NCBI GenBank assembly: GCA_963713955.1
Contig: OY970216.1
Span: 637,483-701,482 of the forward strand
Reading direction: 5' to 3'
Length of the DNA stretch: 64,000 nt
Origin: an uncultured bacterium
GTDB taxonomy: Bacteria; Patescibacteriota; Minisyncoccia; UBA6257; GWB1-50-10
Under the pieces are notes generated by a model. The model was not told the DNA's origin. It saw nothing but the letters and a program-made list of their open reading frames with translations, and searched no databases. Numbering within the stretch: position 1 is the stretch's first letter; each line of letters opens with the position of its first letter. The translations under genes were made by a program, and so were the position numbers. This document shows, piece after piece, positions 16,271 through 54,267 of the stretch.

Positions 16271-16272
16271 AC

Positions 16273-16301
16273 GGCTCCCGGTGCGAAGCCCCCCGGGAGC
16301 C
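16273..16301. repeat. GC hairpin repeat ggctcccggtgcgaagccccccgggagcc (family C hairpin module)
   Basis: Perfect 9-bp stem; the same module occurs at 21390-21420, 24375-24394 (partial) and 33153-33184 (inverted). Confidence 0.6.
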
Positions 16302-16316
16302 CAAAGTTGATTTCTA

Positions 16317-21033: not shown

Positions 21034-21309
21034 TTATTTCTTCTCGAGCTGGATGATCCAAAAGCCTTTTTCCTTGACGTCCTCGACGCTGTAGAACTGC
21101 AAGGGATTCCGGGCTGAGTGTTCAACTTTCTTGCATCCGAATTCCGCTGTGCGCCCCGTGTATTTTCCTGTCGCCGGATCGTACTCTTCAAAAACCAGCG
21201 TATCGCCGCTCTTCAAATCGAAATCCGCCAGTCTCAACTCGAACGTCCGGTCTCCCGAAACGAATTTCTCGAAGAACTCCGGCCAGCATTTTTTCTTTAT
21301 CGTCGCCAT
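21034..21309 (-). CDS. Hypothetical small protein (possibly ASCH/PUA-like)
   Basis: 91 aa beta-rich ORF; no firm motif. Confidence 0.4.
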   Translation of the reverse strand: MATIKKKCWPEFFEKFVSGDRTFELRLADFDLKSGDTLVFEEYDPATGKYTGRTAEFGCKKVEHSARNPLQFYSVEDVKEKGFWIIQLEKK

Positions 21310-21335
21310 GTTTTTATTCTATCACTCGCCGCCGA

Positions 21336-21420
21336 GTTATCCACAGATTTATGGAGAGCGGGAGGCCATATATTGGGAGATAACTCCGTTGCGGCTCCCG
21401 GTGCAAAGCCCCCGGGAGCC
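21336..21420. repeat. Intergenic repeat, family C copy 1 (gttatccacagatttatggagagcgggaggccatata..gataactccgttgcggctcccggtgc..cccgggagcc)
   Basis: Near-identical to 24298-24394; its 5' part recurs inverted at 31166-31196; the 3' hairpin recurs at 16273-16301 and 33153-33184. Confidence 0.65.
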
Positions 21421-21426
21421 CCAGAA

Positions 21427-22026
21427 TTAATTGAAATCAATCTTCTTGATTATTTTGTCCACCTGCCACCGCTTATTAACCCGGCAAAGATACATTTCCT
21501 TCGCGATGAACGAAAACCCAACGCCCTTCGTTCTTTCCCGAACCTCTAGGGCATCTCTGGGATTTTTCAAATACCCCATGCTGAAATGCGGGCTGAAACC
21601 GGTGGGACGGCCGTATTTCCCGAACTCCCGCAAGTCCTTTGCCGTCCAAGTTTTAAACGTGAGAAGCGGCATCGTCCCGGTTCTCAGCGGATGGATCCTT
21701 TCGAATACTTTCCTCTGCAAGGAAACCAGTGATCTCGTCCTTGCCACGGAAAATCCGACCGTCATTCCCCTCTTGACTTGAGAAGCGTGGAAATCGGCGA
21801 CGTTCACCGTGAAAGGTCTCAAATCCTCAGCTATCTTTTCGAGTTCTTCGGCTATTTTATTGATTCTCCCTCCGGCGGTATTGAGATGCCACAGGGAAAG
21901 ATGCGGAATCAGTTTAACGTTGTCGACCACGAACTCGGCCGGACACCCGGCGGTTTCTTTCCTCATCCTCCGGCCGATTTTCTCCCGCAACCCCGCCGGT
22001 GGCAATATGACCACATCCAGAAGCAT
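21427..22026 (-). CDS. 2H phosphoesterase superfamily protein (LigT-like RNA 2',3'-cyclic phosphodiesterase)
   Basis: Two H-x-[ST]-x motifs: PHLSLWHL and PHFSMGYL. Confidence 0.7.
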   Translation of the reverse strand: MLLDVVILPPAGLREKIGRRMRKETAGCPAEFVVDNVKLIPHLSLWHLNTAGGRINKIAEELEKIAEDLRPFTVNVADFHASQVKRGMTVGFSVARTRSLVSLQRKVFERIHPLRTGTMPLLTFKTWTAKDLREFGKYGRPTGFSPHFSMGYLKNPRDALEVRERTKGVGFSFIAKEMYLCRVNKRWQVDKIIKKIDFN

Positions 22027-22113
22027 ATTTTATCTTATCACAATCTCCCCGATTCCTTTCTCTTATTCGCTTATTCGCACGAATTAGAGATATGAGTGCG
22101 CGGGGGATTATTG

Positions 22114-22374
22114 TTATAAAAGCTCGATGATACGGCGGGCGGGCAATTTTTGAATCGATACCAACCGGTAGAACATCTGCAAGCTTCTTTGGTCCTTTTC
22201 GACCATATCCGCCGCCGACAGAATCCCGAGATGTTTGGATGTCGCCTTGAATGACAATTTGATCTCATGCGCGATTTCGCCGACGGGTGCTTCCTTGTTC
22301 TGCTTCAAATATTGCAGAATAGCCAACCGCCGCCGATTGGCCAACGCCTTCAATGTCCTCTCTAATTCCTTCAT
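22114..22374 (-). CDS. ArsR/SmtB family transcriptional regulator
   Basis: 86 aa; ANRRRLAILQYL..PVGEIAHEIKLSFKATSKHLGILSAADMV winged-helix signature. Confidence 0.8.
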   Translation of the reverse strand: MKELERTLKALANRRRLAILQYLKQNKEAPVGEIAHEIKLSFKATSKHLGILSAADMVEKDQRSLQMFYRLVSIQKLPARRIIELL

Positions 22375-22411
22375 CCCCTCTTACCCTTTTATTATATCAT
22401 CTTCCTCATCT

Positions 22412-22433
22412 AATTCTCTCATTCGCGCGAATT
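22412..22433. promoter_or_regulatory. Candidate ArsR operator (palindrome core ATTCGCGCGAAT); related half-palindrome at 22066-22087
   Basis: tctcattcgcgcgaattagaga between arsR and the divergent zinc-ribbon gene; ttattcgcacgaattagaga upstream of the LigT-like gene. Confidence 0.3.
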
Positions 22434-22545
22434 AGAGAACTTAAGAATGGACAAGGAGACCGCTAGCGTGGAAAAATGGACAAAAACCACGGCTCGTGGT
22501 AATACAAAACTAAATAAACAGCAATATTAAAAAGGAGAATAAGGT

Positions 22546-22797
22546 ATGAACTACTCAGCCAGAGGTCCGGAGCATATCCTCTATTGCGACGACTGCAACG
22601 AACCCCTCCGAATGATGGACCGCAGGGGGATCTACTGCCCCAAGTGCAAAGTAAGCGATTCCGGACGGAGTCCGAAATTCATTATGTCCTGCGTGGATTG
22701 CAATAAACCTCTGCAAGTCACAGAGGGCGGAGGGCTGTATTGCGAGCACTGCCTTTTCTATCCCAGCCTGCAGGATGTAGCACTCGAAGAGTGTTGA
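22546..22797 (+). CDS. Small protein with two tandem zinc-ribbon (CxxC..CxxC) modules
   Basis: YCDDCNEPL..GIYCPKCK and MSCVDCNKPL..GLYCEHC; AAAGGAG 8 nt upstream of the ATG; divergent from arsR. Confidence 0.55.
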   Translation: MNYSARGPEHILYCDDCNEPLRMMDRRGIYCPKCKVSDSGRSPKFIMSCVDCNKPLQVTEGGGLYCEHCLFYPSLQDVALEEC

Positions 22798-22820
22798 ACA
22801 TCCAGCCAGTATTCGCAACG

Positions 22821-22851
22821 AATACCCAACATCTGTTGGGTATTTTATTTT
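22821..22851 (+). terminator. Rho-independent terminator (possibly bidirectional) between the zinc-ribbon gene and pilin-like gene 1
   Basis: AAUACCCAACAUCUGUUGGGUAUU + UUAUUUU. Confidence 0.6.
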
Positions 22852-22978
22852 AGCTATTTCCTATCCCCTAAGCCCTAACTTCCACCTTCCCGCCGCCGCC
22901 CGCATAGGTTTTAGTTCTTGCTTTCAACAAAAATTTTTCGATTTCGGTTTTGGGCATTTTCTTATCCGCCTAAGTGCA

Positions 22979-24244
22979 CTACTTTTGAGCATTGTACATA
23001 GCCTGGATCTCAGCCGCAGACAATGCTCGATTATAGATGCGGACGTCGTCAAAAAGGCCATCCATCATCCATCCCGAAACACTTGAAATGCTGATGTTAT
23101 CCGAAGACAAAACATTCCCCGTCACCGAAGATATATTCACAGACCCTGATTGCTTTACTCCGTTCACGTAGACATATGCGAATCCCGCGGAACGATCGAA
23201 GACGATGGCGATATGAGCCCAGGTATTCTGAAGATCTGATGGCCGATACCCAGCGTCACATGCAACAAGTCCTGTCACTAAATTGGTACCATCATTGAAG
23301 TGGATGTTTATTCCTGTTGCACTATAGCTAGAATTGTCGATTGAATATCCAGGATGACCAGATTGATAAGAGTTACTGTTACCAATTGGGAAAAAGGCTC
23401 TTGGATAAACATAACTTCGGTGATAACCCCATCCCACGATCGTCAAACTTCCGGTTTGGGGATATAGGCTTGCATTGTTTCCAACGATCACATTATCATC
23501 CGTCCCATTGAAGTTCCCAGCGTATTGTCCCACCTTGCCTTGAGTATAGTAGGAACCATTGGTTATGGAACCAGACCACGTCCCCTGATTCCCATTCCCA
23601 CTCATATCATTAGGGTTTCCATCGAGGGGCCAGTAACCAACCAATCCATTCGTATTGAATAAGGGATTCAGGGAAAGGTTTGATCCATAAGCTATGACTC
23701 CAGGAATCATAGGAACCATAGGACTTCCTTCAATCTGAGACTTGTATTTCTGTGACTCAGGGAGACCGGTAAGTTCAAAGGAACCTCCCATGGTGTAGGT
23801 ATAGTAGAGGCCCGAACTCGTGGTGTTTATGGGATCAATAGGGAGCTTTGACAAAGGAGAACCTGATGAAATGAGGGTTAGATTGACGGGAATCCAGCCT
23901 GTTCCGTCTACCTTGGTTGAGGAAGAGCTTGGAACACAGTGATAACTCCAGCCTGTGGGAGGGGTAGGGAGACCCAAGGAGCCGCAGGTCGAAGAAGCGT
24001 TGTCGGGAACTGAGAGATAGAGGGTATTTGGAGTCCCTAAAGATTGACTCCACTCATCTGCCTGGAAGAGAGATAAAGCACTGTTTAAAGCTGCCAAGTC
24101 AGACAAACGAGTGGAATCTCTTCCCTGGGCCAGAAGCTGGGCAGGATTCAGGACGAGGACGACTGCGGTTGCGAGGACAGCAAGGATTGCTATCACAACC
24201 AGGAGCTCAATCAATGTAAAAGATTCTCTACTTCGCAGATTCAT
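22979..24244 (-). CDS. Prepilin-type N-terminal cleavage/methylation domain protein with C-terminal LamG (concanavalin A-like) domain, paralog 1
   Basis: Start at MNLRSRES|FTLIELLVVIAILAVLA (type IV pilin class III signal, Glu+5); C-terminal GLFDDVRIYNRALSAAEIQAMYNAQK (Laminin_G_3-type motif). The 51 upstream codons of the track ORF read through repeat C and are rejected. Confidence 0.8.
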   Translation of the reverse strand: MNLRSRESFTLIELLVVIAILAVLATAVVLVLNPAQLLAQGRDSTRLSDLAALNSALSLFQADEWSQSLGTPNTLYLSVPDNASSTCGSLGLPTPPTGWSYHCVPSSSSTKVDGTGWIPVNLTLISSGSPLSKLPIDPINTTSSGLYYTYTMGGSFELTGLPESQKYKSQIEGSPMVPMIPGVIAYGSNLSLNPLFNTNGLVGYWPLDGNPNDMSGNGNQGTWSGSITNGSYYTQGKVGQYAGNFNGTDDNVIVGNNASLYPQTGSLTIVGWGYHRSYVYPRAFFPIGNSNSYQSGHPGYSIDNSSYSATGINIHFNDGTNLVTGLVACDAGYRPSDLQNTWAHIAIVFDRSAGFAYVYVNGVKQSGSVNISSVTGNVLSSDNISISSVSGWMMDGLFDDVRIYNRALSAAEIQAMYNAQK

Positions 24245-24297
24245 TAGTTCAATTATAGCAGGAAAACGTCCTGCCTTTTTGTTCTGGGAGGAGAGTG

Positions 24298-24394
24298 TAG
24301 TTATCCACAGATTTATGGAGAGCGGGAAGCCATAATGAGAGCGGGAGGCCATATAATTGGGGGATAACTCCGTTGCGGCTCCCGGTGCGGAGTC
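24298..24394. repeat. Intergenic repeat, family C copy 2 (with an internal 20-nt duplication), just upstream of pilin-like gene 1
   Basis: agttatccacagatttatggagagcgggaagccataatgagagcgggaggccatataattgggggataactccgttgcggctcccggtgcggagtcc. Confidence 0.65.
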
Positions 24395-24463
24395 CAAATT
24401 TCTATTCCCTATCCCTCTAACCCGTCCGAGCCTTGAGGAGAAATCGAGTTAATGCATCTCTGT

Positions 24464-25255
24464 TCATAATTTGAATAACTTCTTCGCGTTTTTCCAGAAG
24501 ATCCTCTCCTTATCTCTCCCAGGGATCTTCAGCGAATTGATGAGATCGATATGTTCCTGGAAGCCGCATATAGCGTAGTCCGTTCCGAACAAGACGCTTT
24601 CCGGGTTGTCCCTCACGGTCCGTTCCAGAACATCCCTTATCTTATTCAGGCCGATTCTCCTCACCACTTCTTCGTCAGCGAGCCCGGAAGTGTCGAAATG
24701 GATATTCCTGAAACCTCTCGTCATGTCGTAGCAGTAGTCAACTTCCGGATAGAAATAGTGGGCGATGACGATCTTGAGATCCGGAAATTGTTTCGCGACT
24801 TCGACGATATGCTTCGGGTCGTTGTACTCCGCGGCCTCCGGGTGGTTCGGGTTCGAGCCGGTATGGATCACGATAGGGCGACCGTATTTCACGCAGAGTT
24901 TGTAAACGGGCATTAATCTCTCGTCCGTCGGATAGATCGGGTCGTGTCCCGGGAATATCTTGATGCCTCTTATCTTATCCTCCCTGAAAAGCCGGTCCAG
25001 CTTACCCATCCATTCCTTCCCGTCACTCCTCACGTCTATCGTTCCCAGGAGAAAAATATTTTTCTCGCTTTCGGTCAGCCTAAGGCATATATCCAGATCC
25101 CCTATTCCCGAACCGCGTATATTGTCGGGAATCATCACCGCGGCATCGATACCGCCATCCTTCATGTCGGAAAGAAGTTTCTTCTTTGCAACCTCGAAAT
25201 CAAAGCCCGAGCCGCTCTTCACAACAGGTAAGTGAACGTGTGCGTCTATTATCAT
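24464..25255 (-). CDS. Amidohydrolase-2 family metal-dependent hydrolase (TIM barrel)
   Basis: Start at MIIDAHVHLP (classic amidohydrolase HxH); ..VIHTGS.., ..IAHY.. further metal-ligand positions. Confidence 0.75.
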   Translation of the reverse strand: MIIDAHVHLPVVKSGSGFDFEVAKKKLLSDMKDGGIDAAVMIPDNIRGSGIGDLDICLRLTESEKNIFLLGTIDVRSDGKEWMGKLDRLFREDKIRGIKIFPGHDPIYPTDERLMPVYKLCVKYGRPIVIHTGSNPNHPEAAEYNDPKHIVEVAKQFPDLKIVIAHYFYPEVDYCYDMTRGFRNIHFDTSGLADEEVVRRIGLNKIRDVLERTVRDNPESVLFGTDYAICGFQEHIDLINSLKIPGRDKERIFWKNAKKLFKL

Positions 25256-25340
25256 ATTTTCATCCGGGCTTTCGATAAAAATTTTTCCAGTTCGGTTTTT
25301 ACAGCTGGAGGAGACATTTGTTCTAACTTTACTACTCCTG

Positions 25341-25613
25341 TTACTGCACCTCATTCTGAACTTCTTCAGACCCGACCGGAGCGGCAGGCACCTGTAGCGA
25401 TGATAGTTTTGTTCGTATAGACCCTAAAAGTGTATTGGTAACCTTGGAGATGTCACCTATTTCCTCCAGCAAGTTAACTATTTTATTTATTTTCCAATAC
25501 CAACAGAAAAACTCGCGCAAAATAATGAAAAGACATATCGCTATCACTATCCATGCTATAAAAACCAACGCGTTGGAACTGCTCACCAGTTGCCCAAAAA
25601 TAAATTGATTCAT
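25341..25613 (-). CDS. Hypothetical small membrane protein (island)
   Basis: 90 aa, one TM helix, AT-rich coding. Confidence 0.4.
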   Translation of the reverse strand: MNQFIFGQLVSSSNALVFIAWIVIAICLFIILREFFCWYWKINKIVNLLEEIGDISKVTNTLLGSIRTKLSSLQVPAAPVGSEEVQNEVQ

Positions 25614-25656
25614 ATTCAGTTTTTACCCCCTAACTTCCTCGACCTTTCAAAAACTA

Positions 25657-25992
25657 CTACTTCTTGGAGAAATTTTTATAAACCTTATTTATGAAGTAAG
25701 CAATGGCACCTAAAGAAATTACCTCTACCACTAACCCGGCCACAGGATTGATGCCACTAAGGAAAATGGATATAACTAATTGAATAATAGCTATTATCAA
25801 AAGAGCAATTGTAACAAACGTTAAAACCCTACTCCACCTTGTAGTATTTCCATCAAACTTCTCGATAGAATCCTTCAATCGTCGCATCATTTCAACTTGA
25901 GCACCTTGAGACTTGAGACCACTTGTTGTACCTATAACTGTCTCACTAGCCAAGTTTACCAATTCTTCGTCTTTTTTATTTTTAAATTCCAT
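25657..25992 (-). CDS. Hypothetical small membrane protein (island)
   Basis: 111 aa, two C-terminal TM helices. Confidence 0.4.
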   Translation of the reverse strand: MEFKNKKDEELVNLASETVIGTTSGLKSQGAQVEMMRRLKDSIEKFDGNTTRWSRVLTFVTIALLIIAIIQLVISIFLSGINPVAGLVVEVISLGAIAYFINKVYKNFSKK

Positions 25993-26151
25993 AATTTATC
26001 TCAATTATTTCTACAACTTCTATTGTTCTAGCTCCAATCTAACCACATTTCAAGGAAAAGCTGGGCCCGGGTCCTGCTTCCTGCCTGGGGCAACGTCTTC
26101 GCGGCCAACAATATTACCTAAGGTAAACTATTATGTTCTCGTTCCATAGTT

Positions 26152-26772
26152 CTATTTATTCCAACCAAAAAGGTAAACGAGATAAGCAATGACTAGGCCT
26201 ATAATAACTGTAGATATGATCTTATTTTTCTTAATCCAACGCCAGGCATTACCAAAAACAAGTCTCCAATACGCACGATGCGGATTTTTAACATCCTTAA
26301 TGGTAATTCCTTCTGGCGTGAATTCTTTCCCTACCTGGACAAAAGACACTGAACCACCAGCACCACCATCGCCGCCCTTGCTACCATTGAATCCATGACC
26401 ACCGTGACCGCCAGAAGCCTCAATTTTAGGTCCGGAGCTCTTCGGCTCGAACAATGACTTGAATTCCTCTTCGCCCATACTTTCTAGTTTCCCGTGTATA
26501 TAATTCAGATCCTGTATCACAGCATCAATATCATCGAGAATTTCCACATTGTTTGAAAAGGCAGAAAGATACACATCACTATTCTTGCTTAACGCGTTAA
26601 TATACTTCTCATACTTGCCGTAGGCCTGAGTCAATCCGGCCCGATGTATCAATAATGTCCGTTCCCGTGAGTCGGAAGATAACGAATAATCGGCGTTCAC
26701 AAAGGTTCGCCGGTAATTTTCAACCTGAGAACGAAAGACTGAAACTTGTGTTTTTAAATCATTAATTGTCAT
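26152..26772 (-). CDS. Hypothetical protein with Gly-rich segment and C-terminal TM anchor (island)
   Basis: Start at MTINDLKT; SGGHGGHGFNGSKGGDGGAGGS; C-terminal IISTVIIGLVIAYLVYLFGW. Confidence 0.4.
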   Translation of the reverse strand: MTINDLKTQVSVFRSQVENYRRTFVNADYSLSSDSRERTLLIHRAGLTQAYGKYEKYINALSKNSDVYLSAFSNNVEILDDIDAVIQDLNYIHGKLESMGEEEFKSLFEPKSSGPKIEASGGHGGHGFNGSKGGDGGAGGSVSFVQVGKEFTPEGITIKDVKNPHRAYWRLVFGNAWRWIKKNKIISTVIIGLVIAYLVYLFGWNK

Positions 26773-26798
26773 TACTCTCTGGCACACCTACTCATCTG

Positions 26799-26850
26799 GC
26801 AGTTCACTAACAATCCAAGCCGGGCGATGCCCGGCTTGGAAGTGATTGAC
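26799..26850 (-). terminator. Hairpin terminator downstream of the R-M pair
   Basis: CCAAGCCGGGCAUCGCCCGGCUUGG on the minus strand followed by AUUGUUAG. Confidence 0.4.
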
Positions 26851-26967
26851 TTTCGAGTCGGGGCTCTTTCTCTCTATTCCCCGCCTGCTCTTTATTCGAT
26901 TACCTTAATTTTAACCCTCTTAAATTAGAACACAAAGAAGTTGTCCACCTTGCCTCCAGAGCTTGGA

Positions 26968-27765
26968 TCAGATGATTGTCGTCACTTTTTCGTACAACAT
27001 TGGCAAACAATCCTGCCTCATGCGGAATTTTGTCCCATGATTGTGGCCAGTGCGGGCATCGAAATCAACAAGCACATTGCCCTTTTCTAAAGCCTTCAAG
27101 AATCCTTCGAAGCTAAATTTCTGCAACATCATCACTTTTGTATATTTGTAATATTCTTTTCCACGTTCTACCTTCGATTCCGCTTGAACATAGAAAGCAT
27201 TAAGTAATTTCGTACCAGCCTTATGTTCTAGATCATCAAATCCCCAATACGGTTGCGGATCAAGTTCACCTAACCCGGTTCGTTTCTTGACTAGCTTAAG
27301 CCAATCCTTGTGTCTAGGATCAACACTTTTGGCATTAAACGAAACTAAGACCTTCTCTTCCTTACGATCTATGGTAACTTTAAAACCACGATCGCTTCGT
27401 GACTTACCATGAATAGTTTGACGAAAACTCATCTCGCCTTTCCTATACAGCTTCCCCGCTTCCTCATGGGGCCATCCGTATAGAGGAAGTAAAACCTGGG
27501 GCACGAATCTTATAGCACGGGGCGACGGTTCAGTATGAAATAGTGTGGTTAGCGAGGTGGTGTTTGTCCTCTGCGCCTTCAATTCCCACTCCGCCGCGTT
27601 CGGGATTGGTAGGTTATTCTCTTTAATACCAAGCAGATCCTCAAGTGTATTACCTACGCCGCCAGTATTACCCCTCCGTGCGTTTGGGATCCACCCCATC
27701 GCAGAAATTTTTCTCAGTTTTGCTATCAATGCTGGTTTTGTATAGATTACTGGTCTCTTCTTCAT
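26968..27765 (-). CDS. Type II restriction endonuclease, MvaI/BcnI family-like
   Basis: N-terminal LRKISAMGWIPNARRGNTGGVGNTLEDLLGIKENNLPIPNAAEWELK resembles the MvaI/BcnI catalytic N-terminus; 3 nt downstream of an N4/N6 MTase. Confidence 0.6.
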   Translation of the reverse strand: MKKRPVIYTKPALIAKLRKISAMGWIPNARRGNTGGVGNTLEDLLGIKENNLPIPNAAEWELKAQRTNTTSLTTLFHTEPSPRAIRFVPQVLLPLYGWPHEEAGKLYRKGEMSFRQTIHGKSRSDRGFKVTIDRKEEKVLVSFNAKSVDPRHKDWLKLVKKRTGLGELDPQPYWGFDDLEHKAGTKLLNAFYVQAESKVERGKEYYKYTKVMMLQKFSFEGFLKALEKGNVLVDFDARTGHNHGTKFRMRQDCLPMLYEKVTTII

Positions 27766-27767
27766 AG

Positions 27768-28577
27768 TTATAAGAGCTTTGACTGGTGTTTATACTCTTT
27801 AATTCTCTTTTCTGCCATCTCACAATATTCTGGTGAGACATCTATTCCTATATAGTTTCGCTTATTGTTCATCGCAGCAATTGCTGTAGTACCAGAACCC
27901 ATAAATGGATCCAAGATCATCTTGGCATTCGTCGCGGAAACAATCCGGTCAATTAAATTAACCGGAAAGGCAGCGGGATGTTCATTATTCATTTCTTGAG
28001 TAAATTCCCAAACATCGCCACGAGCATTAGCTTTTGGCGAAAGTTTGAACTTAGGCTTGGCAATCAGATAGATTACCTCGTAAGTTGGAAGGAAATAACC
28101 CGGGTTGAAATTCAATCCCCCTTTTCGCTTCCAGATAATAATCTGGCGAATTGGAAAACCACTGACGATATCCTGACGATCTTGCAGTAAACCACCCTGC
28201 ACGCGCCACTTGTGGTTGTAAAAAATTGCACCATCATCTGGTATAACTCGCATCATCTCTGTCAGGCAATCTCTTTGCCACTTAACATATTCTTCGTGTG
28301 GCATACAGTCATCATGGTTCGCATACCCTTTTTGAAGTGCGGCATTGGCCCATTTGCCACCTCGACCATCTTTCATTCCATTGCCAGTAGAATTCTTCAA
28401 GTTATAGGGCGGCGAAGTGACCACCAGATCAACCGCCCCATCCGGTATCTGTCTCATTACATCAACTGCATCACCACAAATGATCTTGTTTATAAAATCT
28501 TTGGGAAATCTAATGTCTTTTGAGATTTGTTTATTCGGAGTAATAGTTCCTCTTTTTAATACTGTTGATGGTTTCAT
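27768..28577 (-). CDS. DNA methyltransferase, beta-class N4-cytosine/N6-adenine (SPPY motif)
   Basis: DLVVTSPPYNL (motif IV) and LDPFMGSGTTAIAA (FxGxG SAM-binding motif I) in circularly permuted beta order, as in M.MvaI/M.BcnI-type m4C MTases. Confidence 0.85.
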   Translation of the reverse strand: MKPSTVLKRGTITPNKQISKDIRFPKDFINKIICGDAVDVMRQIPDGAVDLVVTSPPYNLKNSTGNGMKDGRGGKWANAALQKGYANHDDCMPHEEYVKWQRDCLTEMMRVIPDDGAIFYNHKWRVQGGLLQDRQDIVSGFPIRQIIIWKRKGGLNFNPGYFLPTYEVIYLIAKPKFKLSPKANARGDVWEFTQEMNNEHPAAFPVNLIDRIVSATNAKMILDPFMGSGTTAIAAMNNKRNYIGIDVSPEYCEMAEKRIKEYKHQSKLL

Positions 28578-28722
28578 GATGGGAAGGATATAAGCTAATA
28601 TTACCCCATTTTTCTGTATTTTTCATCATCGAATATTATACGCAGCCGTGTTTAGTCATTTATTTAGATCCTTCCTTTTTCCCTTTTCTCCAACCACCAT
28701 TTCTTGAAAAACGGCATAAAAA

Positions 28723-29082
28723 TCAGAGCTCCGTATACTTTCTATGGCTCCCCCACGCTTTCTTGACGGGGTATTTTTTCTCGTTCTTCTCCATCTTCTT
28801 CTCCAAAGCTTTCTTAATGTCTATATCCAAATCGTGGCTCATAAGGAGCACCCAGTAGAGCACATCGGCCAGTTCTTCACCTATGTGCTCCTTGTGGGTT
28901 TTGATGTATTTTTTAATTTCCTCGCCATTCTTCCACTGGAAGTGCTCCAAGACTTCAGCGGCTTCCAAGGAAAGAGAAATGGCCACATCCTTCGGATTGT
29001 GAAACTGCTTCCAATTCCTGGCGTTCCTGAACTTTAAAATCCTGTTGGTTAGCGCTTTTATGTCGGACATGGTATCCCTCAA
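28723..29082 (-). CDS. MazG-like nucleotide pyrophosphohydrolase (all-alpha NTP-PPase)
   Basis: LSLEAAEVLEHFQW..EELADVLYWVLLMSHDL EExxE/D motifs. Confidence 0.7.
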   Translation of the reverse strand: MRDTMSDIKALTNRILKFRNARNWKQFHNPKDVAISLSLEAAEVLEHFQWKNGEEIKKYIKTHKEHIGEELADVLYWVLLMSHDLDIDIKKALEKKMEKNEKKYPVKKAWGSHRKYTEL

Positions 29083-29188
29083 ATTCTACCCCTTCCGCCT
29101 CTCCATAATCCGCCAGCCGGCGGATGTGGATAACCATCCCCCACCCCGCCGAAAAGCAGAAAGGCGCCATCTGAGTTAGAATATACCT

Positions 29189-29884
29189 ATGGACCTCAAT
29201 GGCAAAATCGTTGTTATTACAGGTGGCAGCAAAGGTTTAGGTAGATCTCTGGCTGAACTTTTGTCAAAAGAAGGTGCGAAACTGGCTATCTGTTCTCCCG
29301 AGGAGGAGGAAATTCTTGCGGTTGCGAAGGAGATTGGTTGCTTGGGAATACGAGCCGATGTACGCCGCGAAGAAGAAGTTAAAAAACTTGCTGAACTTAC
29401 GGAGCGGGAATTTGGAAGAATTGACATATGGATAAACAATGCCGGCATCCGGATTCCGAGAGTTCCACTCGAGGATACAGACATGAAAAGAGTGCACGAG
29501 ATGGTGGAAGTGAATCTTTTCGGGACAATGTACGGTTCCAAGGCGGCGATGATCCAAATGAAAAAACGAAAAGAAGGTACAATCGTAAACATACTTTCGA
29601 CAAGTGCACTTGAGGGAGCGAAATATTCCACCGGATACGGAGCCAGCAAGGGCGGAGCCATAGCTTTTACGAAATCGCTCAGAGTAGAACTTTCACCCTT
29701 TGGAATAAGTGTCATCGGTGTTTATCCCAAGGGAATGAGAACGGAGTTTTTCCGCGAGAATAAGCCAGCTGATTATGAAAAATACATGGACCCAAGAGAA
29801 GTAGCACGGCAAATCGTGAACAATCTCAAGAAAAACAAACCGGAAGAAGAATTCTTCATCAAAACTGATCCGTCTGCTCCTTAA
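29189..29884 (+). CDS. Short-chain dehydrogenase/reductase (SDR) family oxidoreductase
   Basis: ITGGSKGLG (TGxxxGxG), NNAG, YGASKGG (YxxxK). Confidence 0.85.
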   Translation: MDLNGKIVVITGGSKGLGRSLAELLSKEGAKLAICSPEEEEILAVAKEIGCLGIRADVRREEEVKKLAELTEREFGRIDIWINNAGIRIPRVPLEDTDMKRVHEMVEVNLFGTMYGSKAAMIQMKKRKEGTIVNILSTSALEGAKYSTGYGASKGGAIAFTKSLRVELSPFGISVIGVYPKGMRTEFFRENKPADYEKYMDPREVARQIVNNLKKNKPEEEFFIKTDPSAP

Positions 29885-29937
29885 GTTCTCCTCCCACAAA
29901 CAAAAAAGCATGGCGTTTTCCTGCTATAATTGAACTA

Positions 29938-31157
29938 ATGAACTTTCGTTTCAGAGAATCTTTTACCTTAATTGAGCTTCTTGTAGTCATAGCCATCCTT
30001 GCCGTCTTAGCAACCGCCGTCATCCTAATCCTGAATCCTGCCCAGCTCTTAGCCCAAGGAAGAGACTCCACCAGACTCTCTGATCTTGCAGCTCTGAATA
30101 GTGCTCTCTCCCTCTTCCAGGCTGATCAATGGAGTCAATCCATGGGATTAGCTTCCACCACCTATATCTCAGTCCCTGATCATCATCCACCTGTGGTAAT
30201 CTAGGCCTCCCTGCCTTACCTTCAGGCTATTCCTATCACTGTGTCCCCAGTGCTTCCTCCACGAGAATAGATGGTACCGGCTGGATTCCCGTCAATCTAA
30301 CCCTCATATCATCAGGATCTCCTCTTTCGAAGCTCCCCCTAGACCCCCTGAACACTACCTCGAGTGGAGAATACTATACCTATACGCCAGGAGGATCCTT
30401 TGAACTCACGGCCATACCCGAGTCCCAGAAGTACCGCGCTCAGTATCAAACCATTCCTCCCCTTCAGAACATTCCTGGAGTTATAGCCTATGGATCGAAT
30501 CTTTCCCTCTCTCCCCTCTTCAATACCCAAGGGTTAGTGGGGTATTGGCCGCTGGATGGAAACTCTAATGATATGTCTGGGAATGGGAATAATGGGAGTT
30601 TAACGGCGGGGGTAGGATGGGGAAACGGTAAAATTGGTTCAGCGTTGAGTTTAAATGGTAGTGGTAATGATTACGCTCGGGTTTCTCGTGTGGTGGCCAA
30701 TGATTTTTCAATTTGTTTATATGTTAAGGCATTGAGTGATTCTACGTCGGGATCGCAATGGTACCATGGACAGGGACTTTTTGATTCAGAGGTTAGTGGT
30801 GTCGTGAACGACTACGGCGTAGCATATCTTAATAACAAGGCTGCGTTTGGTACGGGGAACCCCGACACAACTATCCAGAGCACCCAATTCATAAACGATG
30901 GAATATGGCATCAAGTATGTGCTACCAGGATACAAAGTAGCGGAAGCATTTTTTTGTACGTAGACAGCAATTTACAGGCGAGTACAACTGAGGCGAATAC
31001 CGCATCTCTCACGGCACCGACATATTCTTATATGGGCAGCTCAAATGGAGGTGTCGGAAATCACGGGATCATTAATGGCCTCATCGACGACGTTCGCGTC
31101 TACAACAGGGCTTTGTCAGCAGCAGAGATTGCGGCTATATACAACGCCCAGAAATAA
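29938..31157 (+). pseudogene. Prepilin::LamG paralog 2, disrupted by a frameshift (4-nt deficit relative to paralog 3 near 30170-30200)
   Basis: Frame A 29938..30204 (MNFRFRES|FTLIELLVVIAILAVLA...SVPDHHPPVVI*); frame B continues ..SSSTCGNLGLPALPSGYSYHCVPSASSTRIDGTGWIPVNLT.. through 30537..31157 (..GLIDDVRVYNRALSAAEIAAIYNAQK). Confidence 0.6.
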
Positions 31158-31165
31158 ATACTCAA

Positions 31166-31196
31166 CCTCCCGCTCTCCATAAATCTGTGGATAACT
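31166..31196. repeat. Family C repeat, 5' module in inverted orientation, between paralogs 2 and 3
   Basis: cctcccgctctccataaatctgtggataact is the reverse complement of agttatccacagatttatggagagcgggagg. Confidence 0.6.
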
Positions 31197-31251
31197 ATCT
31201 CCTCCTTTCAAAAACAAAAAGCCAGGACATTTTCCTGCTATAATTAAACAA

Positions 31252-32478
31252 ATGAACTTTCGTTCCCGAAGCAGCTTCACTTTGATCGAGCTCCTTGTCG
31301 TGATCGCGATCCTGGCTGTCCTAGCCACAGCAGTCGTCCTAGTCTTAAACCCCTCCCAGCTCCTTGCTCAGGGAAGGGATTCCACCCGTCTCTCAGACCT
31401 GGCAGCTCTGAATAGCGCTTTATCCTTGTTCCAGGCTGATGCCTATACCCAGTCATTGGGGACTCCCAATACCCTCTACATCTCAGTCCCTGACAATGCC
31501 TCCTCCACCTGTGGATCCCTGGGTCTTCCCACCCCTCCCACAGGCTATTCCTATCACTGTGTCCCCAGTGCTTCCTCCACGAGAATAGATGGTACCGGCT
31601 GGATTCCCGTCAATCTAACCCTCATATCATCAGGATCTCCTCTTTCGAAGCTCCCTATTGATCCCATAAACACTACCTCATCTGGTCTCTACTACACCTA
31701 TGTCTCAGGAGGATCATATGAATTGACCGGTCTACCTGAATCACAGAAGTACAAGGCACAGATTGAAGGCAACCCAATGATTCCCATGATTCCCGGAGTC
31801 ATAGCCTATGGTTCCAACCTTACCTTATCTCCCTTGTTCAGTACCCAGGGGTTAGTGGGCTATTGGCCTCTCGATGAAGGGTCCGGCTCAACAGCCAATG
31901 ATATGAGTGGGAATGGGAATAATGGGACGTGGAATGGAAGTGGAACGCATTATGCTCAGGGTAAGGTTGGGGGGTTCGCTGGGCAATTCAATGGGACAAG
32001 CACACAAGATTACACTAGCGCTCCTTATAACACTTCACTCAATGTAACGAGTCTTACTATAACCGCCTGGGTCAAAAACTCGGCAACGGGAGAGAGGGTT
32101 GTCGCCTCAAAATTTGGTTCATCACCTTATCAAGGTTATTGGTTTGGCGAAGACAGTGGTGGTGGATTGCGGGTTTGCTTAGGTACAGGTGGTCAGACAT
32201 GTATTAATAAGGGACTTTTTCCTACCGATAATACCTGGCATTTTATTTCTTTTACTTATGACAATACGACCGGTACTTGGAATTTCTATATTGATGCTTC
32301 TACAACTGGTTCATCTACGGCAGTTACCGCTATAGCACCGGTTAATACGGATTTTCGGATCGGAGTCGGCCAGTGGAGTTCAAGCGACTATTTTCAGGGA
32401 CTAATCGACGATGTTCGTATCTACAACCGAGCGTTGTCCGCAGCGGAGATAGCTGCTATCTATAACGCACAGAAGTAA
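31252..32478 (+). CDS. Prepilin::LamG paralog 3
   Basis: MNFRSRSS|FTLIELLVVIAILAVLA..; C-terminal GLIDDVRIYNRALSAAEIAAIYNAQK. Confidence 0.8.
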   Translation: MNFRSRSSFTLIELLVVIAILAVLATAVVLVLNPSQLLAQGRDSTRLSDLAALNSALSLFQADAYTQSLGTPNTLYISVPDNASSTCGSLGLPTPPTGYSYHCVPSASSTRIDGTGWIPVNLTLISSGSPLSKLPIDPINTTSSGLYYTYVSGGSYELTGLPESQKYKAQIEGNPMIPMIPGVIAYGSNLTLSPLFSTQGLVGYWPLDEGSGSTANDMSGNGNNGTWNGSGTHYAQGKVGGFAGQFNGTSTQDYTSAPYNTSLNVTSLTITAWVKNSATGERVVASKFGSSPYQGYWFGEDSGGGLRVCLGTGGQTCINKGLFPTDNTWHFISFTYDNTTGTWNFYIDASTTGSSTAVTAIAPVNTDFRIGVGQWSSSDYFQGLIDDVRIYNRALSAAEIAAIYNAQK

Positions 32479-32486
32479 TTCCGTTT

Positions 32487-32783
32487 TTATTTATCTTTTT
32501 CCTTTTTTGAAAGCCCCCACGACCTATGCGTAGGTGTGCGGGTTAACCACCACTTCTTGAAGAAGGGCATCGTGAGCGTGGAAAGCATGAAGGCGACTGC
32601 CGGGACGACGGCATTCAGCCACGGGTTCGGAATCCTGATCGCCCACATATAGACGCCAAGCGCGAGGTACGTGAAGACTGTGAGGAGCCCGCGCCTCGTC
32701 CAACTCTTCTCCCACGCCTTGTCCCCCTCGACTTTTTTGTTTCTCTCCTCGATCCTTTGAACTCTCTCCTCGAAATTCTCCAT
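32487..32783 (-). CDS. Hypothetical small membrane protein (paralog of 16796..17293)
   Basis: Start at MENFEERVQRIEERNKK; two TM helices. Confidence 0.45.
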   Translation of the reverse strand: MENFEERVQRIEERNKKVEGDKAWEKSWTRRGLLTVFTYLALGVYMWAIRIPNPWLNAVVPAVAFMLSTLTMPFFKKWWLTRTPTHRSWGLSKKEKDK

Positions 32784-32787
32784 AGCT

Positions 32788-33108
32788 TTATTTCTTCTTT
32801 CTTTTCCCTCCCTGCTGCCCGGGTTTCGCATTCTTCACCGGAAGCTGCTTTTTGTTCTTCTTGACGATCTTCTCGATCACCTCTTCGAAGACGGCGCCGT
32901 TCCCGTTCGCGAGAAGCGCGAGGACCCAGTAGACGTCGTCGATATTATCTTCCACCTCTTCCCAGTCGTACTTCAGGAATTTCTTCAGAATCTCCGCATC
33001 CTCCTCCAATTTGACGGCATTCCGGAGCTCGCCGATCCCCGCGACGACGTTCAAAAGGAGATCCTTGGGATTCGAAATCTTGCCAGCCGGTATTTTGGTG
33101 TCAGACAT
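32788..33108 (-). CDS. MazG-like nucleotide pyrophosphohydrolase, second paralog
   Basis: 106 aa; ELRNAVKLEEDAEILKKFL..DDVYWVLALLA; Lys-rich C-terminus. Confidence 0.6.
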   Translation of the reverse strand: MSDTKIPAGKISNPKDLLLNVVAGIGELRNAVKLEEDAEILKKFLKYDWEEVEDNIDDVYWVLALLANGNGAVFEEVIEKIVKKNKKQLPVKNAKPGQQGGKRKKK

Positions 33109-33152
33109 GGTATTACCTGAATTCTAGCGCTTTTCCAAGACCACGACAATTT

Positions 33153-33184
33153 GGGGACTCCCGGGGACTTCGCACCGGGAGGCC
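33153..33184. repeat. Family C hairpin module (inverted): ggggactcccggggacttcgcaccgggaggcc
   Basis: Reverse complement ggcctcccggtgcgaagtccccgggagtcccc matches 16273-16301. Confidence 0.55.
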
Positions 33185-33211
33185 ATAGATCCTGGGGATA
33201 AACTGCAGTCA

Positions 33212-43330: not shown

Positions 43331-43489
43331 ACTTAGTCGCCTCCCACTCTATAGCTTCCACCATCCGATCGTTTGTTCATGGACAGCAAAAACTGTTTAT
43401 GATGATGAACTTAGAGTTTACACAATACCACAAATCAATAGCGTGGTCAATGTGCGCAAAATGCCGGATTCAAATATAATAAATTCACT

Positions 43490-51401: not shown

Positions 51402-51458
51402 ATAGTCTCATTATAGCATACGTTGAAACAATCTCGCGCCAGACTATAATGAAAGAGA

Positions 51459-54149: not shown

Positions 54150-54267
54150 ATTGCTTTCATTGTAACATAGTTTTCCTTCTTGATTACTTGTTACTCGTTA
54201 CTGATTATCTTTTTAATTTGACTTCCTTCGGAAATAACATATAATAATGAGGCTAAATTGAACTACT

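What the first reader, a model, noticed from the sequence alone, without database searches (positions are those of the whole stretch)
24245..24400. Conserved ~60-nt promoter block with a TATAAT only 7 nt before the ATG (leaderless-type) upstream of three pilin-like genes, abutting repeat C
Upstream of paralogs 1, 2 and 3 (24245-24297, 29885-29937, 31206-31251) the sequence ctcctcc..aacaaaaag.cagg.c.ttttcctgctataattgaactaATG is conserved. The -10 hexamer ends 7 nt before the start codon, implying leaderless mRNAs without a Shine-Dalgarno sequence. Paralog 5 and several housekeeping genes show the same geometry: SDR at 29189 (tagaat, 6 nt), thrS at 43490 (tataat, 9 nt), FNR at 51459 (tataat, 8 nt).
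Basis: seen in the sequence. Interest (0 to 1): 0.5.

Follow-up and report, generated by a model that had tools for sequence, protein, structure and literature searches.

The report
Leaderless-type promoter block before pilin-like genes
Three paralogous pilin-like genes of an ultra-small (CPR/Patescibacteria) bacterium share a selectively conserved ~55-nt promoter whose TGcTATAAT box lies 7 nt before the ATG, so the mRNAs most likely start at the start codon, which is the usual way first genes are expressed in this genome and its relatives.

Summary
An approximately 55-nt block (CTCCTCC, AACAAAAAG, a 17-bp near-palindrome, TGcTATAAT, 7 nt, ATG) precedes three paralogous pilin-like genes carrying N_methyl and LamG domains. 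Copy 1 is on the minus strand. Copy 2 heads a frameshifted gene. The block is 76-87% identical between copies, whereas 4-fold degenerate sites in the adjacent coding sequence are only 50-56% identical. The block is therefore under constraint and is not simply duplication residue.

The leaderless reading is strongly supported, but only indirectly:
- 19 gene starts in the window have a TAnnnT hexamer 5-9 nt upstream.
- 11 of those 19 carry the extended -10 TG (p = 3e-10).
- No -35 consensus appears.
- Shine-Dalgarno cores are not enriched.
- Two divergent genes share a 57-bp spacer that holds two TATAAT boxes.
- In 80 related CPR metagenome loci, TATAAT-like hexamers peak at exactly 6 nt before the first ATG (22 of 202 ORFs, against 0.3 expected).

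No transcription start sites are available. The kind of feature is known from Actinobacteria and Deinococcus (GeneMarkS-2 "group C"). I found no paper in the searchable library reporting it for CPR. The function of the extra 40 conserved nucleotides is unresolved. Public annotation translates paralog 1 through its own promoter (457 aa instead of 421). I classify this as a new member of a known kind, of moderate interest.

The parts
24245..24297 (-). Block copy 1, upstream of paralog 1. On the minus strand it reads CTCCTCC (24287-24293), AACAAAAAG (24275-24283), the 17-bp palindrome GCAGGA-N5-TCCTGC (24258-24274), TGc (24258-24260), TATAAT (24252-24257), the 7-nt discriminator tgaacta (24245-24251), then ATG (24242-24244).
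29885..29937 (+). Block copy 2, upstream of the frameshifted paralog 2. It starts 1 nt after the SDR stop codon (29882-29884). Elements: CTCCTCC 29888-29894; imperfect palindrome GCATGG-N5-TCCTGC 29908-29924; TGc 29922-29924; TATAAT 29925-29930; tgaacta 29931-29937; ATG 29938.
31199..31251 (+). Block copy 3, upstream of paralog 3. Elements: CTCCTCC 31199-31205; (C)CAGGA-N5-TCCTG(C) 31222-31238; TGc 31236-31238; TATAAT 31239-31244; taaacaa 31245-31251; ATG 31252.
22979..24244 (-). Paralog 1: a type IV pilin-like protein of 421 aa (N_methyl + Laminin_G_3). Public annotation starts it at ATG 24352 (457 aa) and so reads through the promoter block.
29938..31157 (+). Paralog 2, split by a frameshift: an 88-codon N-terminal ORF (29938-30204) and a C-terminal LamG part in another frame (to 31157). 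Probably a pseudogene.
31252..32478 (+). Paralog 3: an intact pilin-like protein of 408 aa (N_methyl + Laminin_G_3).
24299..24395 (-). Repeat C, copy C2, directly upstream of block copy 1. It contains the 31-nt core CTTCCCGCTCTCCATAAATCTGTGGATAACT. The DnaA-box-like 9-mer TGTGGATAA (24309-24301) ends 43 nt before the -10 hexamer.
31166..31196 (+). Repeat C, core copy C3, directly upstream of block copy 3. TGTGGATAA (31186-31194) ends 44 nt before the -10 hexamer.
29177..29188 (+). Leaderless-type promoter of the SDR gene: TAGAAT (29177-29182), 6 nt, then ATG at 29189. A fourth TGTGGATAA (29125-29133) ends 43 nt before this hexamer.
43475..43489 (+). Leaderless-type promoter of thrS: TATAAT (43475-43480), 9 nt, then ATG at 43490.
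51402..51458 (.). A 57-bp spacer between divergent start codons (51401 minus, 51459 plus). It holds two opposed -10 boxes: TGcTATAAT (51410-51415, minus; 8 nt to its ATG) and TATAAT (51445-51450, plus; 8 nt to its ATG).
54150..54167 (-). Paralog 5 promoter, unrelated in sequence to the block: TGtTACAAT (hexamer 54159-54164), 9 nt, then ATG at 54149.

Best explanation
The block is a housekeeping-sigma (sigma-70 type) promoter of the extended -10 class. It reads TGcTATAAT and has no recognisable -35 element. Because its -10 hexamer ends 7 nt before the ATG, RNA polymerase should start at the A of the ATG or 1 nt upstream of it. The pilin-like paralogs would then be expressed as leaderless mRNAs (0-1 nt leader). 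Such mRNAs are translated without Shine-Dalgarno pairing, presumably by direct binding of 70S ribosomes or initiator tRNA to a 5'-terminal AUG.

This is not peculiar to the pilin genes. It is the usual architecture for monocistronic and first-in-operon genes in this Patescibacteria (Paceibacteria-like) genome and its relatives, which show no Shine-Dalgarno enrichment.

The roughly 40 nt upstream of the -10 are kept by selection and most likely modulate the promoter. They comprise the invariant TTTTCCTGC (3' half of a 17-bp palindrome that exactly fills the spacer), an A-tract at about -40 to -32, and CTCCTCC at about -50. Possible roles are an operator and/or an upstream element. That last step is inference only.

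Shown: the sequence geometry, its enrichment, its constraint and its recurrence in relatives. Inferred: the position of the transcription start, the mode of translation, and the role of the upstream part.
For: - The three copies are confirmed and the 16-mer TTTTCCTGCTATAATT is invariant.
- Block identity is 76-87%, against 50-56% at 4-fold degenerate sites.
- Window-wide, 20 of 56 first ATGs have TAnnnT ending 5-11 nt upstream, against 6.8% of control ATGs (p = 3e-10).
- 19 curated starts have gaps of 5-9 nt. TG occupies positions -3/-2 of the hexamer in 11 of 19 (p = 3e-10), or 9 of 17 if the three paralogs are counted once (p = 4e-8). No -35 consensus appears.
- 7 of the 11 TGnTATAAT sites in the whole window lie 5-10 nt before a gene start.
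- A 57-bp divergent spacer carries two TATAAT boxes, each 8 nt from its ATG.
- The ATG is the first start codon after the in-frame stop in paralogs 2 and 3, SDR and thrS.
- Shine-Dalgarno cores occur at 4 of 53 and 6 of 33 starts, against 11.5% background.
- In relatives, TATAAT-like hexamers peak at a gap of 6 nt before pilin-like N-termini (14 of 101) and before long ORFs generally (22 of 202, against 0.3 expected from control ATGs). Shine-Dalgarno cores are not enriched there either. TG is enriched there too. Controls with spurious ORFs and shuffled sequence are flat.
- The criterion used matches published practice. A Pribnow box 6-8 nt from the start codon is taken as leaderless 'group C' (PMC6028130), and the transcription start typically lies 7 bp after the -10 (PMC12641261).
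- About half of Parcubacteria 16S sequences lack the anti-SD motif (PMC9297842).
Against: - There is no 5'-end or expression data for this organism, so the start site is inferred from geometry.
- The gap is 7 nt rather than the modal 6 nt, so a 1-nt leader is as likely as none.
- All three genes follow a co-oriented upstream gene, so read-through leadered transcripts may coexist.
- This genome evidently translates internal genes without Shine-Dalgarno sequences (A-rich at -6 to -3), so a leadered mRNA lacking an SD could also be translated.
- One of the three copies heads a frameshifted gene.
- The block was not found upstream of any homologue in the 160 related loci, so its upstream part has no comparative support beyond the three paralogs.
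Confidence: 0.75

Rival explanations
1. The block is only leftover flanking DNA copied along with the gene when the paralogs duplicated, or was homogenised by gene conversion. It has no function of its own beyond perhaps the -10.
For: The three genes are paralogs (66% amino-acid identity between paralogs 1 and 3). Similarity runs continuously from the block into the coding sequence (inverted and direct repeats I1, I2 and D2).
Against: Neutral sites next door are near saturation. 4-fold degenerate sites are 50-56% identical, while the block is 76-87% identical with a 16-nt invariant core. A conversion tract confined to 55 non-coding nt that leaves the adjacent synonymous sites untouched is unlikely.
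Confidence: 0.07
2. The genes are transcribed from further upstream, either from a promoter in repeat C or by read-through from the preceding gene. The AU-rich TATAATTGAACTA just before the ATG would then be an unstructured, SD-independent ribosome landing site rather than a promoter.
For: This genome shows no Shine-Dalgarno enrichment, and internal genes have A-rich sequence just before the ATG. All three genes have a co-oriented gene upstream.
Against: An AU-rich landing site would not require the exact T-A-n-n-n-T pattern, the TG two bases upstream (11 of 19, p = 3e-10), or a fixed 5-9 nt spacing with a mode at 6 nt in relatives. Internal genes that lack the hexamer are A-rich but not TATAAT-like. 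The 57-bp divergent spacer leaves no room for two leadered promoters.
Confidence: 0.12
3. The conserved hairpin and its flanking A-tract (T-tract on the other strand) form an intrinsic terminator or insulator. This would be a compact terminator-promoter module that stops transcription from the upstream gene, or antisense transcription, immediately before the -10. That would explain the extra conservation.
For: - The terminator scan flags the antisense strand at copies 1 and 3, reading GCAGGAAAACGTCCTGC followed by CTTTTTGTT.
- Several relatives have a clear hairpin plus T-run directly upstream of their -10. One example is L097, which reads GCCGCCCatagGGCGGTTTTTTTGT followed by TATAAT. L001, L002, L093 and L105 show the same arrangement.
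Against: The stem has only 5-6 bp, and the RNA fold is not better than shuffles (z = -1.5 to -0.5). On the sense strand the hairpin is followed by UAUAAUU, not a U-tract. The T-run lies on the strand where no gene needs terminating, since all neighbouring genes of copy 1 are on the minus strand. In copy 2 the 5' arm has two uncompensated changes while the 3' arm is invariant. Terminator-like hits in the region are at chance level (17 found, 15.5 expected).
Confidence: 0.15
4. The inverted copies of the block (copy 1 against copies 2 and 3) are recombination sites for DNA inversion that switches between pilin-like adhesin variants.
For: Copies are in inverted orientation 5.6-7 kb apart and share a perfectly identical 16-bp core. 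The region is a low-GC island containing a restriction-modification system.
Against: No recombinase or invertase is encoded among the genes scanned in or beside the segment. Each paralog already has its own complete promoter and N-terminus, so inversion at the block would change nothing. The two assemblies show the same arrangement.
Confidence: 0.03

Closest known systems
Leaderless genes of Actinobacteria and Deinococcus-Thermus (GeneMarkS-2 'group C'; M. tuberculosis, D. deserti)
   Same: A Pribnow box lies 6-8(-10) nt before the start codon of first-in-operon genes, with no Shine-Dalgarno sequence and an AUG start. About a third of genes are affected (PMC6028130).
   Different: The lineage is different: Patescibacteria/CPR, which that survey did not cover, and I found no paper in the searchable library reporting leaderless genes there. 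In group C genomes the remaining genes use Shine-Dalgarno sites. Here SD cores are not enriched at all. The start sites are unmapped.
Extended -10 (TGnTATAAT) promoters lacking a -35 element (E. coli galP1 type; common in Gram-positive bacteria)
   Same: TG lies one base upstream of a consensus -10, and nothing at -35 matches TTGACA. In the block, the best candidate hexamers are AAAAAG and CAAAAA.
   Different: This appears to be the default promoter type here rather than a minority class. Activity has not been tested.
SD-independent initiation in Bacteroidota (GeneMarkS-2 'group B', A-rich non-SD signal)
   Same: There is no Shine-Dalgarno enrichment, and the sequence just before internal start codons is A-rich.
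   Different: Group B genomes show the same motif before all genes, and it is not a promoter. Here the first genes carry a positioned TGnTAnnnT promoter motif instead.
Type IV pilin gene promoters (e.g. sigma-54/PilR-dependent pilA of Pseudomonas; from general knowledge)
   Same: They drive genes encoding proteins with a class III signal peptide and the FTLIELL N-terminal helix.
   Different: There is no sigma-54 -24/-12 (GG-N10-GC) motif. The promoter is sigma-70-type and leaderless. The proteins are about 400 aa long and end in a LamG domain.

Membership tests
Bacterial leaderless gene (promoter-proximal start, 'group C' type) | A -10 (Pribnow) hexamer ends about 6-10 nt upstream of the start codon | tested here: met
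   TATAAT ends 7 nt before the ATG in all three copies. The window-wide enrichment has p = 3e-10. The mode in relatives is 6 nt.
Bacterial leaderless gene (promoter-proximal start, 'group C' type) | No Shine-Dalgarno sequence between the promoter and the start codon; the start codon is AUG | tested here: met
   The 7 nt are tgaacta or taaacaa, and the start codon is ATG. Shine-Dalgarno cores are not enriched anywhere in the window.
Bacterial leaderless gene (promoter-proximal start, 'group C' type) | The assigned start codon is the true one | tested here: met
   It is the first start codon after the in-frame stop in paralogs 2 and 3. It gives an 8-residue basic leader peptide before FTLIELL, conserved in all five paralogs. 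The upstream extension of paralog 1 is not conserved as protein.
Bacterial leaderless gene (promoter-proximal start, 'group C' type) | A primary transcript 5' end is mapped at, or within a few nt of, the start codon | not testable with these tools
   No transcriptome or 5'-end data are accessible for this uncultured organism.
Extended -10 sigma-70 promoter | TG dinucleotide at -15/-14 (TGn immediately 5' of the hexamer) | tested here: met
   TGcTATAAT is present in all three copies. TG is present in 11 of 19 leaderless-type promoters of the window, against a 5% background, and is also enriched in relatives.
Extended -10 sigma-70 promoter | Promoter activity independent of a -35 element | not testable with these tools
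   At the sequence level there is no -35 match (about 1 of 6 at 16-18 bp spacing). Activity would need an assay.
Rho-independent terminator | A stable GC-rich stem-loop immediately followed by a U-tract on the transcribed strand | tested here: inconclusive
   The stem has 5-6 bp. The U-tract lies only on the antisense strand. The fold z-scores are -1.5 to -0.5, and hits in the region are at chance level.
Known structured RNA (Rfam) | A match to any Rfam covariance model in the block or in repeat C | tested here: not met
   The gathering-threshold scan of the window found only tRNA-Thr. The E-value scans of 21250-24500 and 29050-33300 gave no match or only noise with E > 0.3.
Type IV pilin / pseudopilin (class III signal peptide) | An N-terminal methylation motif and hydrophobic helix (G/FTLIE...) | tested here: met
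   PF07963 N_methyl and TIGR02532 score above their cut-offs. However, the residue before the F is Ser, not the canonical Gly.

The most novel reading that the evidence does not exclude
This Paceibacteria-type CPR lineage may express most first-in-operon genes as leaderless mRNAs from -35-less extended -10 promoters and make essentially no use of Shine-Dalgarno pairing. That would fit the published loss of the anti-SD motif in part of Parcubacteria. It would be a whole bacterial lineage with reduced ribosomes that relies on 5'-AUG (leaderless) and A-rich SD-independent initiation.

Within that setting, the extra 40 conserved nt of the pilin block, together with the DnaA-box-like TGTGGATAA sited 43-44 nt upstream of the -10 at three promoters, would form a dedicated operator/activator module. 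It would co-regulate paralogous LamG-tipped pilin adhesins.
Probability: 0.35. Interest if true: 0.6.

Novelty: new member of a known kind. Interest (0 to 1): 0.4.

Why it matters
- Gene calling. Start-codon prediction in CPR genomes goes wrong when leaderless geometry is ignored. Public annotation of paralog 1 begins at an upstream ATG and translates through the promoter, burying the pilin signal peptide 36 residues inside a 457-aa product.
- Biology. If confirmed, this would add Patescibacteria to the lineages where leaderless initiation is a major mode. It would also link that mode to their reduced ribosomes and to the reported loss of the anti-SD motif in part of Parcubacteria.
- Symbiont surface biology. 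The conserved block marks a set of co-regulated LamG pilin-like paralogs, which may act as host-attachment adhesins, and gives a defined 55-nt element for testing regulation.

Tried and rejected
- Known RNA families: Rfam scans at gathering and E-value thresholds found nothing in the block or in repeat C.
- RNA structure: the small hairpin folds no better than shuffles, and its 5' arm changes without compensation. A structured RNA element is therefore not supported.
- The block in relatives: TCCTGCTATAAT is absent from all 160 related loci, so phylogenetic footprinting of the upstream part was not possible.
- Inversion or shufflon idea: no recombinase was found in the genes scanned.
- Possible artefact: the "first ATG after an in-frame stop" rule could create TAA/TAG-containing hexamers. 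Spurious 40-90-aa ORFs show only about 1% bumps, at gaps of 2, 5, 8 and 11 nt. Shuffled sequence is flat. The real peak is at 6-9 nt.
- Canonical -35 element: the scanner found promoters with a -35 at or below chance (14 found, 17 expected).
- Literature: full-text searches pairing "leaderless" or "Shine-Dalgarno" with Patescibacteria, Candidate Phyla Radiation, Saccharibacteria or Parcubacteria found no report of leaderless genes in CPR, only incidental citations.
- Source organism: an exact look-up of ThrRS for the source contig record failed. The organism is therefore placed only as Paceibacteria-like, from the homologue titles.

Full report
**What is there**

The window comes from a Patescibacteria (CPR) genome. 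The best relatives of its pilin-like proteins are MAGs labelled Paceibacterota, Wolfebacteria, Liptonbacteria and "Patescibacteria group". Three window proteins checked are on record from a single public contig of 804,691 bp.

The window encodes five paralogous proteins of about 400 aa. Each has a prepilin N-terminus (MNLRSRES|FTLIELLVVIAILAVLA; PF07963 N_methyl) and a C-terminal Laminin_G_3 domain:
- Paralog 1: 22979-24244 (-).
- Paralog 2: 29938-30204, with the rest of the gene shifted into another frame up to 31157 (+).
- Paralog 3: 31252-32478 (+).
- Paralog 4: 46228-47436 (-).
- Paralog 5: 52962-54149 (-).

**Check of the observation**

Upstream of paralogs 1, 2 and 3 the sequence reads CTCCTCC..AACAAAAAG.CAGGAC.TTTTCCTGCTATAATTgAACtAATG, as reported.

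Copy 1 is on the minus strand (24245-24297). The 16-mer TTTTCCTGCTATAATT is identical in all three copies and unique to them. TATAAT ends 7 nt before the ATG in each copy.

- SDR gene: TAGAAT, 6 nt.
- thrS: TATAAT, 9 nt.
- FNR-like gene: TATAAT, 8 nt.
- Paralog 5: TGtTACAAT, 9 nt.

Three details need correcting:
- Repeat C abuts only copies 1 and 3.
- Paralog 2 carries a 4-nt deletion relative to paralogs 1 and 3 near 30180 and is frameshifted. A second public assembly shows the same break.
- Paralog 4 starts 16 nt after the preceding gene and has no promoter of its own.

**The block is under constraint**

Between the three paralogs, third positions of codons that keep the same amino acid are only 45-54% identical. 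4-fold degenerate sites are 50-56% identical. That is close to saturation.

The 55 nt upstream of the ATG are 76-87% identical (binomial p = 2e-7 to 3e-5). The block is therefore not residue of a recent duplication. A gene-conversion tract that spared the adjacent synonymous sites is unlikely.

**Is the TATAAT a promoter at leaderless distance?**

Several independent lines of evidence say yes.

1. Enrichment in the window. In a mechanical set of 56 long ORFs, 20 first ATGs have a TAnnnT hexamer ending 5-11 nt upstream, against 6.8% of all other ATGs (p = 3e-10).
2. Extended -10 motif. I aligned 19 such starts on the hexamer. The two bases at -3/-2 are TG in 11 of 19, against a TG background of 5% (p = 3e-10). 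Counting the three paralogs once gives 9 of 17 (p = 4e-8). This is the extended -10 motif TGnTAnAAT. No -35 consensus appears. An AU-rich translational signal would not need a TG or the T-A-n-n-n-T pattern.
3. Location of TATAAT sites. Of the 32 perfect TATAAT hexamers on both strands of the window, 11 lie 5-10 nt before one of the 19 leaderless-type gene starts. Of the 11 TGnTATAAT sites, 7 do.
4. Divergent gene pair. The divergent starts at 51401 (-) and 51459 (+) are separated by only 57 bp. That spacer contains two opposed TATAAT boxes, each 8 nt from its ATG. There is no room for two leadered promoters.
5. Start-codon assignment. In paralogs 2 and 3, SDR and thrS, the ATG is the first possible start codon after the in-frame stop. 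For the pilins it gives a typical short basic leader peptide. The SDR protein begins just before its Rossmann motif.
6. No Shine-Dalgarno signal. Shine-Dalgarno cores (GGAG, GAGG, AGGA) at -17 to -5 occur at 4 of 53 first ATGs. They occur at 6 of 33 starts that lack the -10 geometry, against 11.5% at random positions. Those other starts are simply A-rich at -6 to -3. A few leadered genes do have plausible SD sequences (for example 12414, 17925 and 43330).

**Comparative evidence**

One genome scan and one metagenome scan with the paralog alignment returned 160 loci, with homologues 35-63% identical.
- Among 101 pilin-like N-termini, hexamers matching TATAAT at 5 or more of 6 positions peak at 6 nt (14 cases) and 9 nt (8 cases) before the ATG.
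- Across all long ORFs in the 80 metagenome loci, the peak at 6 nt is 22 of 202 against 0.3 expected. Gaps of 7-10 nt are also elevated. SD cores are not enriched (6.9% against 9.5% in control ATGs).
- TG at -3/-2 is enriched there as well.
- The "first ATG after a stop codon" rule could in principle create stop-containing hexamers. Spurious 40-90-aa ORFs give only about 1% bumps at gaps of 2, 5, 8 and 11 nt, and shuffled loci are flat. The peak is therefore not an artefact.

A 6-nt gap puts the A of the ATG at the seventh base after the -10. That is the preferred transcription start position across 49 bacteria (PMC12641261). It is also the spacing used to call leaderless "group C" genomes (PMC6028130).

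In the pilin block the gap is 7 nt. The start is therefore the A of the ATG or the A just before it, giving a 0-1 nt leader.

**What the rest of the block may do**

The 17 bp between the position of a would-be -35 and the -10 are exactly a palindrome, GCAGGA-N5-TCCTGC.
- The 3' half (TTTTCCTGC) is invariant.
- The 5' arm varies without compensation, most of all in the frameshifted copy 2.
- As RNA the hairpin is weak (z = -1.5 to -0.5).
- On the antisense strand the hairpin is followed by CTTTTTGTT and is flagged as terminator-like. Such hits are at chance level in the region (17 found against 15.5 expected), and no gene there needs terminating.

Several relatives do have a clear terminator hairpin and T-run directly upstream of the -10. 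A degenerate terminator-promoter module therefore remains possible.

My preferred reading is a DNA-level operator or spacer element, plus an upstream A-tract and CTCCTCC. This is inference. The block itself was not found in any related locus, so there is no comparative support beyond the three paralogs.

**Surroundings**

Repeat C has the core CCTCCCGCTCTCCATAAATCTGTGGATAACT. It occurs at 21335-21365 (-), 24299-24329 (-) and 31166-31196 (+), and it contains a perfect DnaA-box-like 9-mer.

The window has four perfect TGTGGATAA 9-mers. All four lie upstream of, and are co-oriented with, a leaderless-type promoter:
- SDR: 43 nt from the 9-mer end to the -10.
- Paralog 3: 44 nt.
- Paralog 1: 43 nt.
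- A DUF3850 gene (ATG 21309, TGaTAGAAT): 15 nt.

A related element exists in another CPR contig (L087:355-455). A hairpin CTCCCGG-N10-CCGGGAG that forms part of repeat C recurs at 16272-16302 and 33148-33181. These are leads and are not part of the verdict.

**Comparison with what is known**

- The geometry matches leaderless genes of Actinobacteria and Deinococcus, and extended -10 promoters.
- It differs in lineage. It also differs in the apparent absence of Shine-Dalgarno use for the remaining genes, which resembles Bacteroidota-type SD-independent initiation.
- A 2022 study reported that the anti-SD motif is missing from about half of Parcubacteria 16S rRNAs (PMC9297842).
- Full-text searches found no paper reporting leaderless genes in CPR. 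The library is incomplete, so this shows only that no report was found.

**Practical consequence**

The public protein for paralog 1 is the 457-aa product that starts at ATG 24352. It reads through half of repeat C and the whole promoter block. The 421-aa product starting at 24244 is not on record.

**Verdict**

The leaderless-promoter interpretation is supported by strong but indirect evidence (confidence about 0.75). It awaits 5'-end mapping. The feature is a new member of a known kind and is of moderate interest. The unexplained part is the selectively conserved 40 nt upstream of the -10.

Noticed in passing
window 21337-21345(+), 24301-24309(+), 29125-29133(-strand 9-mer TTATCCACA; reads TGTGGATAA on +), 31186-31194: The window has four perfect DnaA-box-like 9-mers (TGTGGATAA / TTATCCACA). 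All four lie upstream of, and are co-oriented with, a leaderless-type promoter. The distance from the 9-mer end to the -10 is 43 nt (SDR), 44 nt (paralog 3), 43 nt (paralog 1) and 15 nt (DUF3850 gene). This could be a transcription-factor site centred near -60. In the related loci there are 14 such sites in 784 kb against about 6 expected, some immediately upstream of a -35/-10 pair (L032, L048).
   Followed up: partly
window 21335-21428, 24299-24395, 31166-31196, 33148-33201; L087:355-455: Repeat C is a composite intergenic element of about 95 nt. It consists of the hairpin CTCCCGG-N10-CCGGGAG, then CCGCAACGGAGTTATC, then CCCGCTCTCCATAAATCTGTGGATAACT. It occurs in either orientation relative to neighbouring genes. 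A recognisable relative exists in a different CPR contig. The sequence motifs are conserved but the second hairpin is not. There is no Rfam match.
   Followed up: partly
window 16272-16302, 21395-21428, 33148-33181: The same GC-rich hairpin (GGCTCCCGGGGGGCTTCGCACCGGGAGCC) recurs between genes. At 16272-16302 it sits between a stop codon and the next start codon. This is REP-like or terminator-like, and it lacks a T-run.
   Followed up: partly
window 29938-31157: Paralog 2 is broken by a frameshift (a 4-nt deletion relative to paralogs 1 and 3 near 30180). It is split the same way in a second public assembly, yet it keeps the conserved promoter block.
   Followed up: partly
window 22979-24352 (-): Public annotation (NCBI/ENA) starts paralog 1 at ATG 24352 (457 aa), reading through the promoter block. 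The 421-aa version is not on record. The FNR-like gene is annotated from its second ATG (240 aa).
   Followed up: yes
window 59545-63248 (-): rpoC appears split into two overlapping ORFs: 61101-63248 (715 aa, matching the N-terminal 665 positions of the beta' model) and 59545-61125 (526 aa, TTG start, 25-nt overlap). This is either a genuine split beta' as in cyanobacteria, or a frameshift.
   Followed up: no
window 4372-6801 (-): A single 809-aa ORF fuses glucose-6-phosphate dehydrogenase (residues 14-475) with 6-phosphogluconate dehydrogenase (residues 501-798).
   Followed up: no
window 24220, 29962, 31276, 47412, 54137 (N-termini of the five paralogs): The residue before the mature F of the FTLIELL motif is Ser (RES|F or RSS|F), not the canonical Gly of prepilin peptidase sites. 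Many CPR homologues also have S, A or N at that position.
   Followed up: no
window 28723-29094 and 32788-33132 (-): Two MazG-like paralogs share a conserved upstream TAGAAT followed by 12 nt and the ATG. This implies a leader of about 5 nt, a second example of a promoter duplicated together with its gene.
   Followed up: no
window ~22000-31000: This is a lower-GC stretch (43-46%, against 50-55% elsewhere). It carries an MvaI/BcnI-type restriction endonuclease (26968-27765) with an N4/N6 DNA methylase (27768-28577), three of the pilin-like paralogs and the repeat C copies. It looks like a variable island.
   Followed up: no
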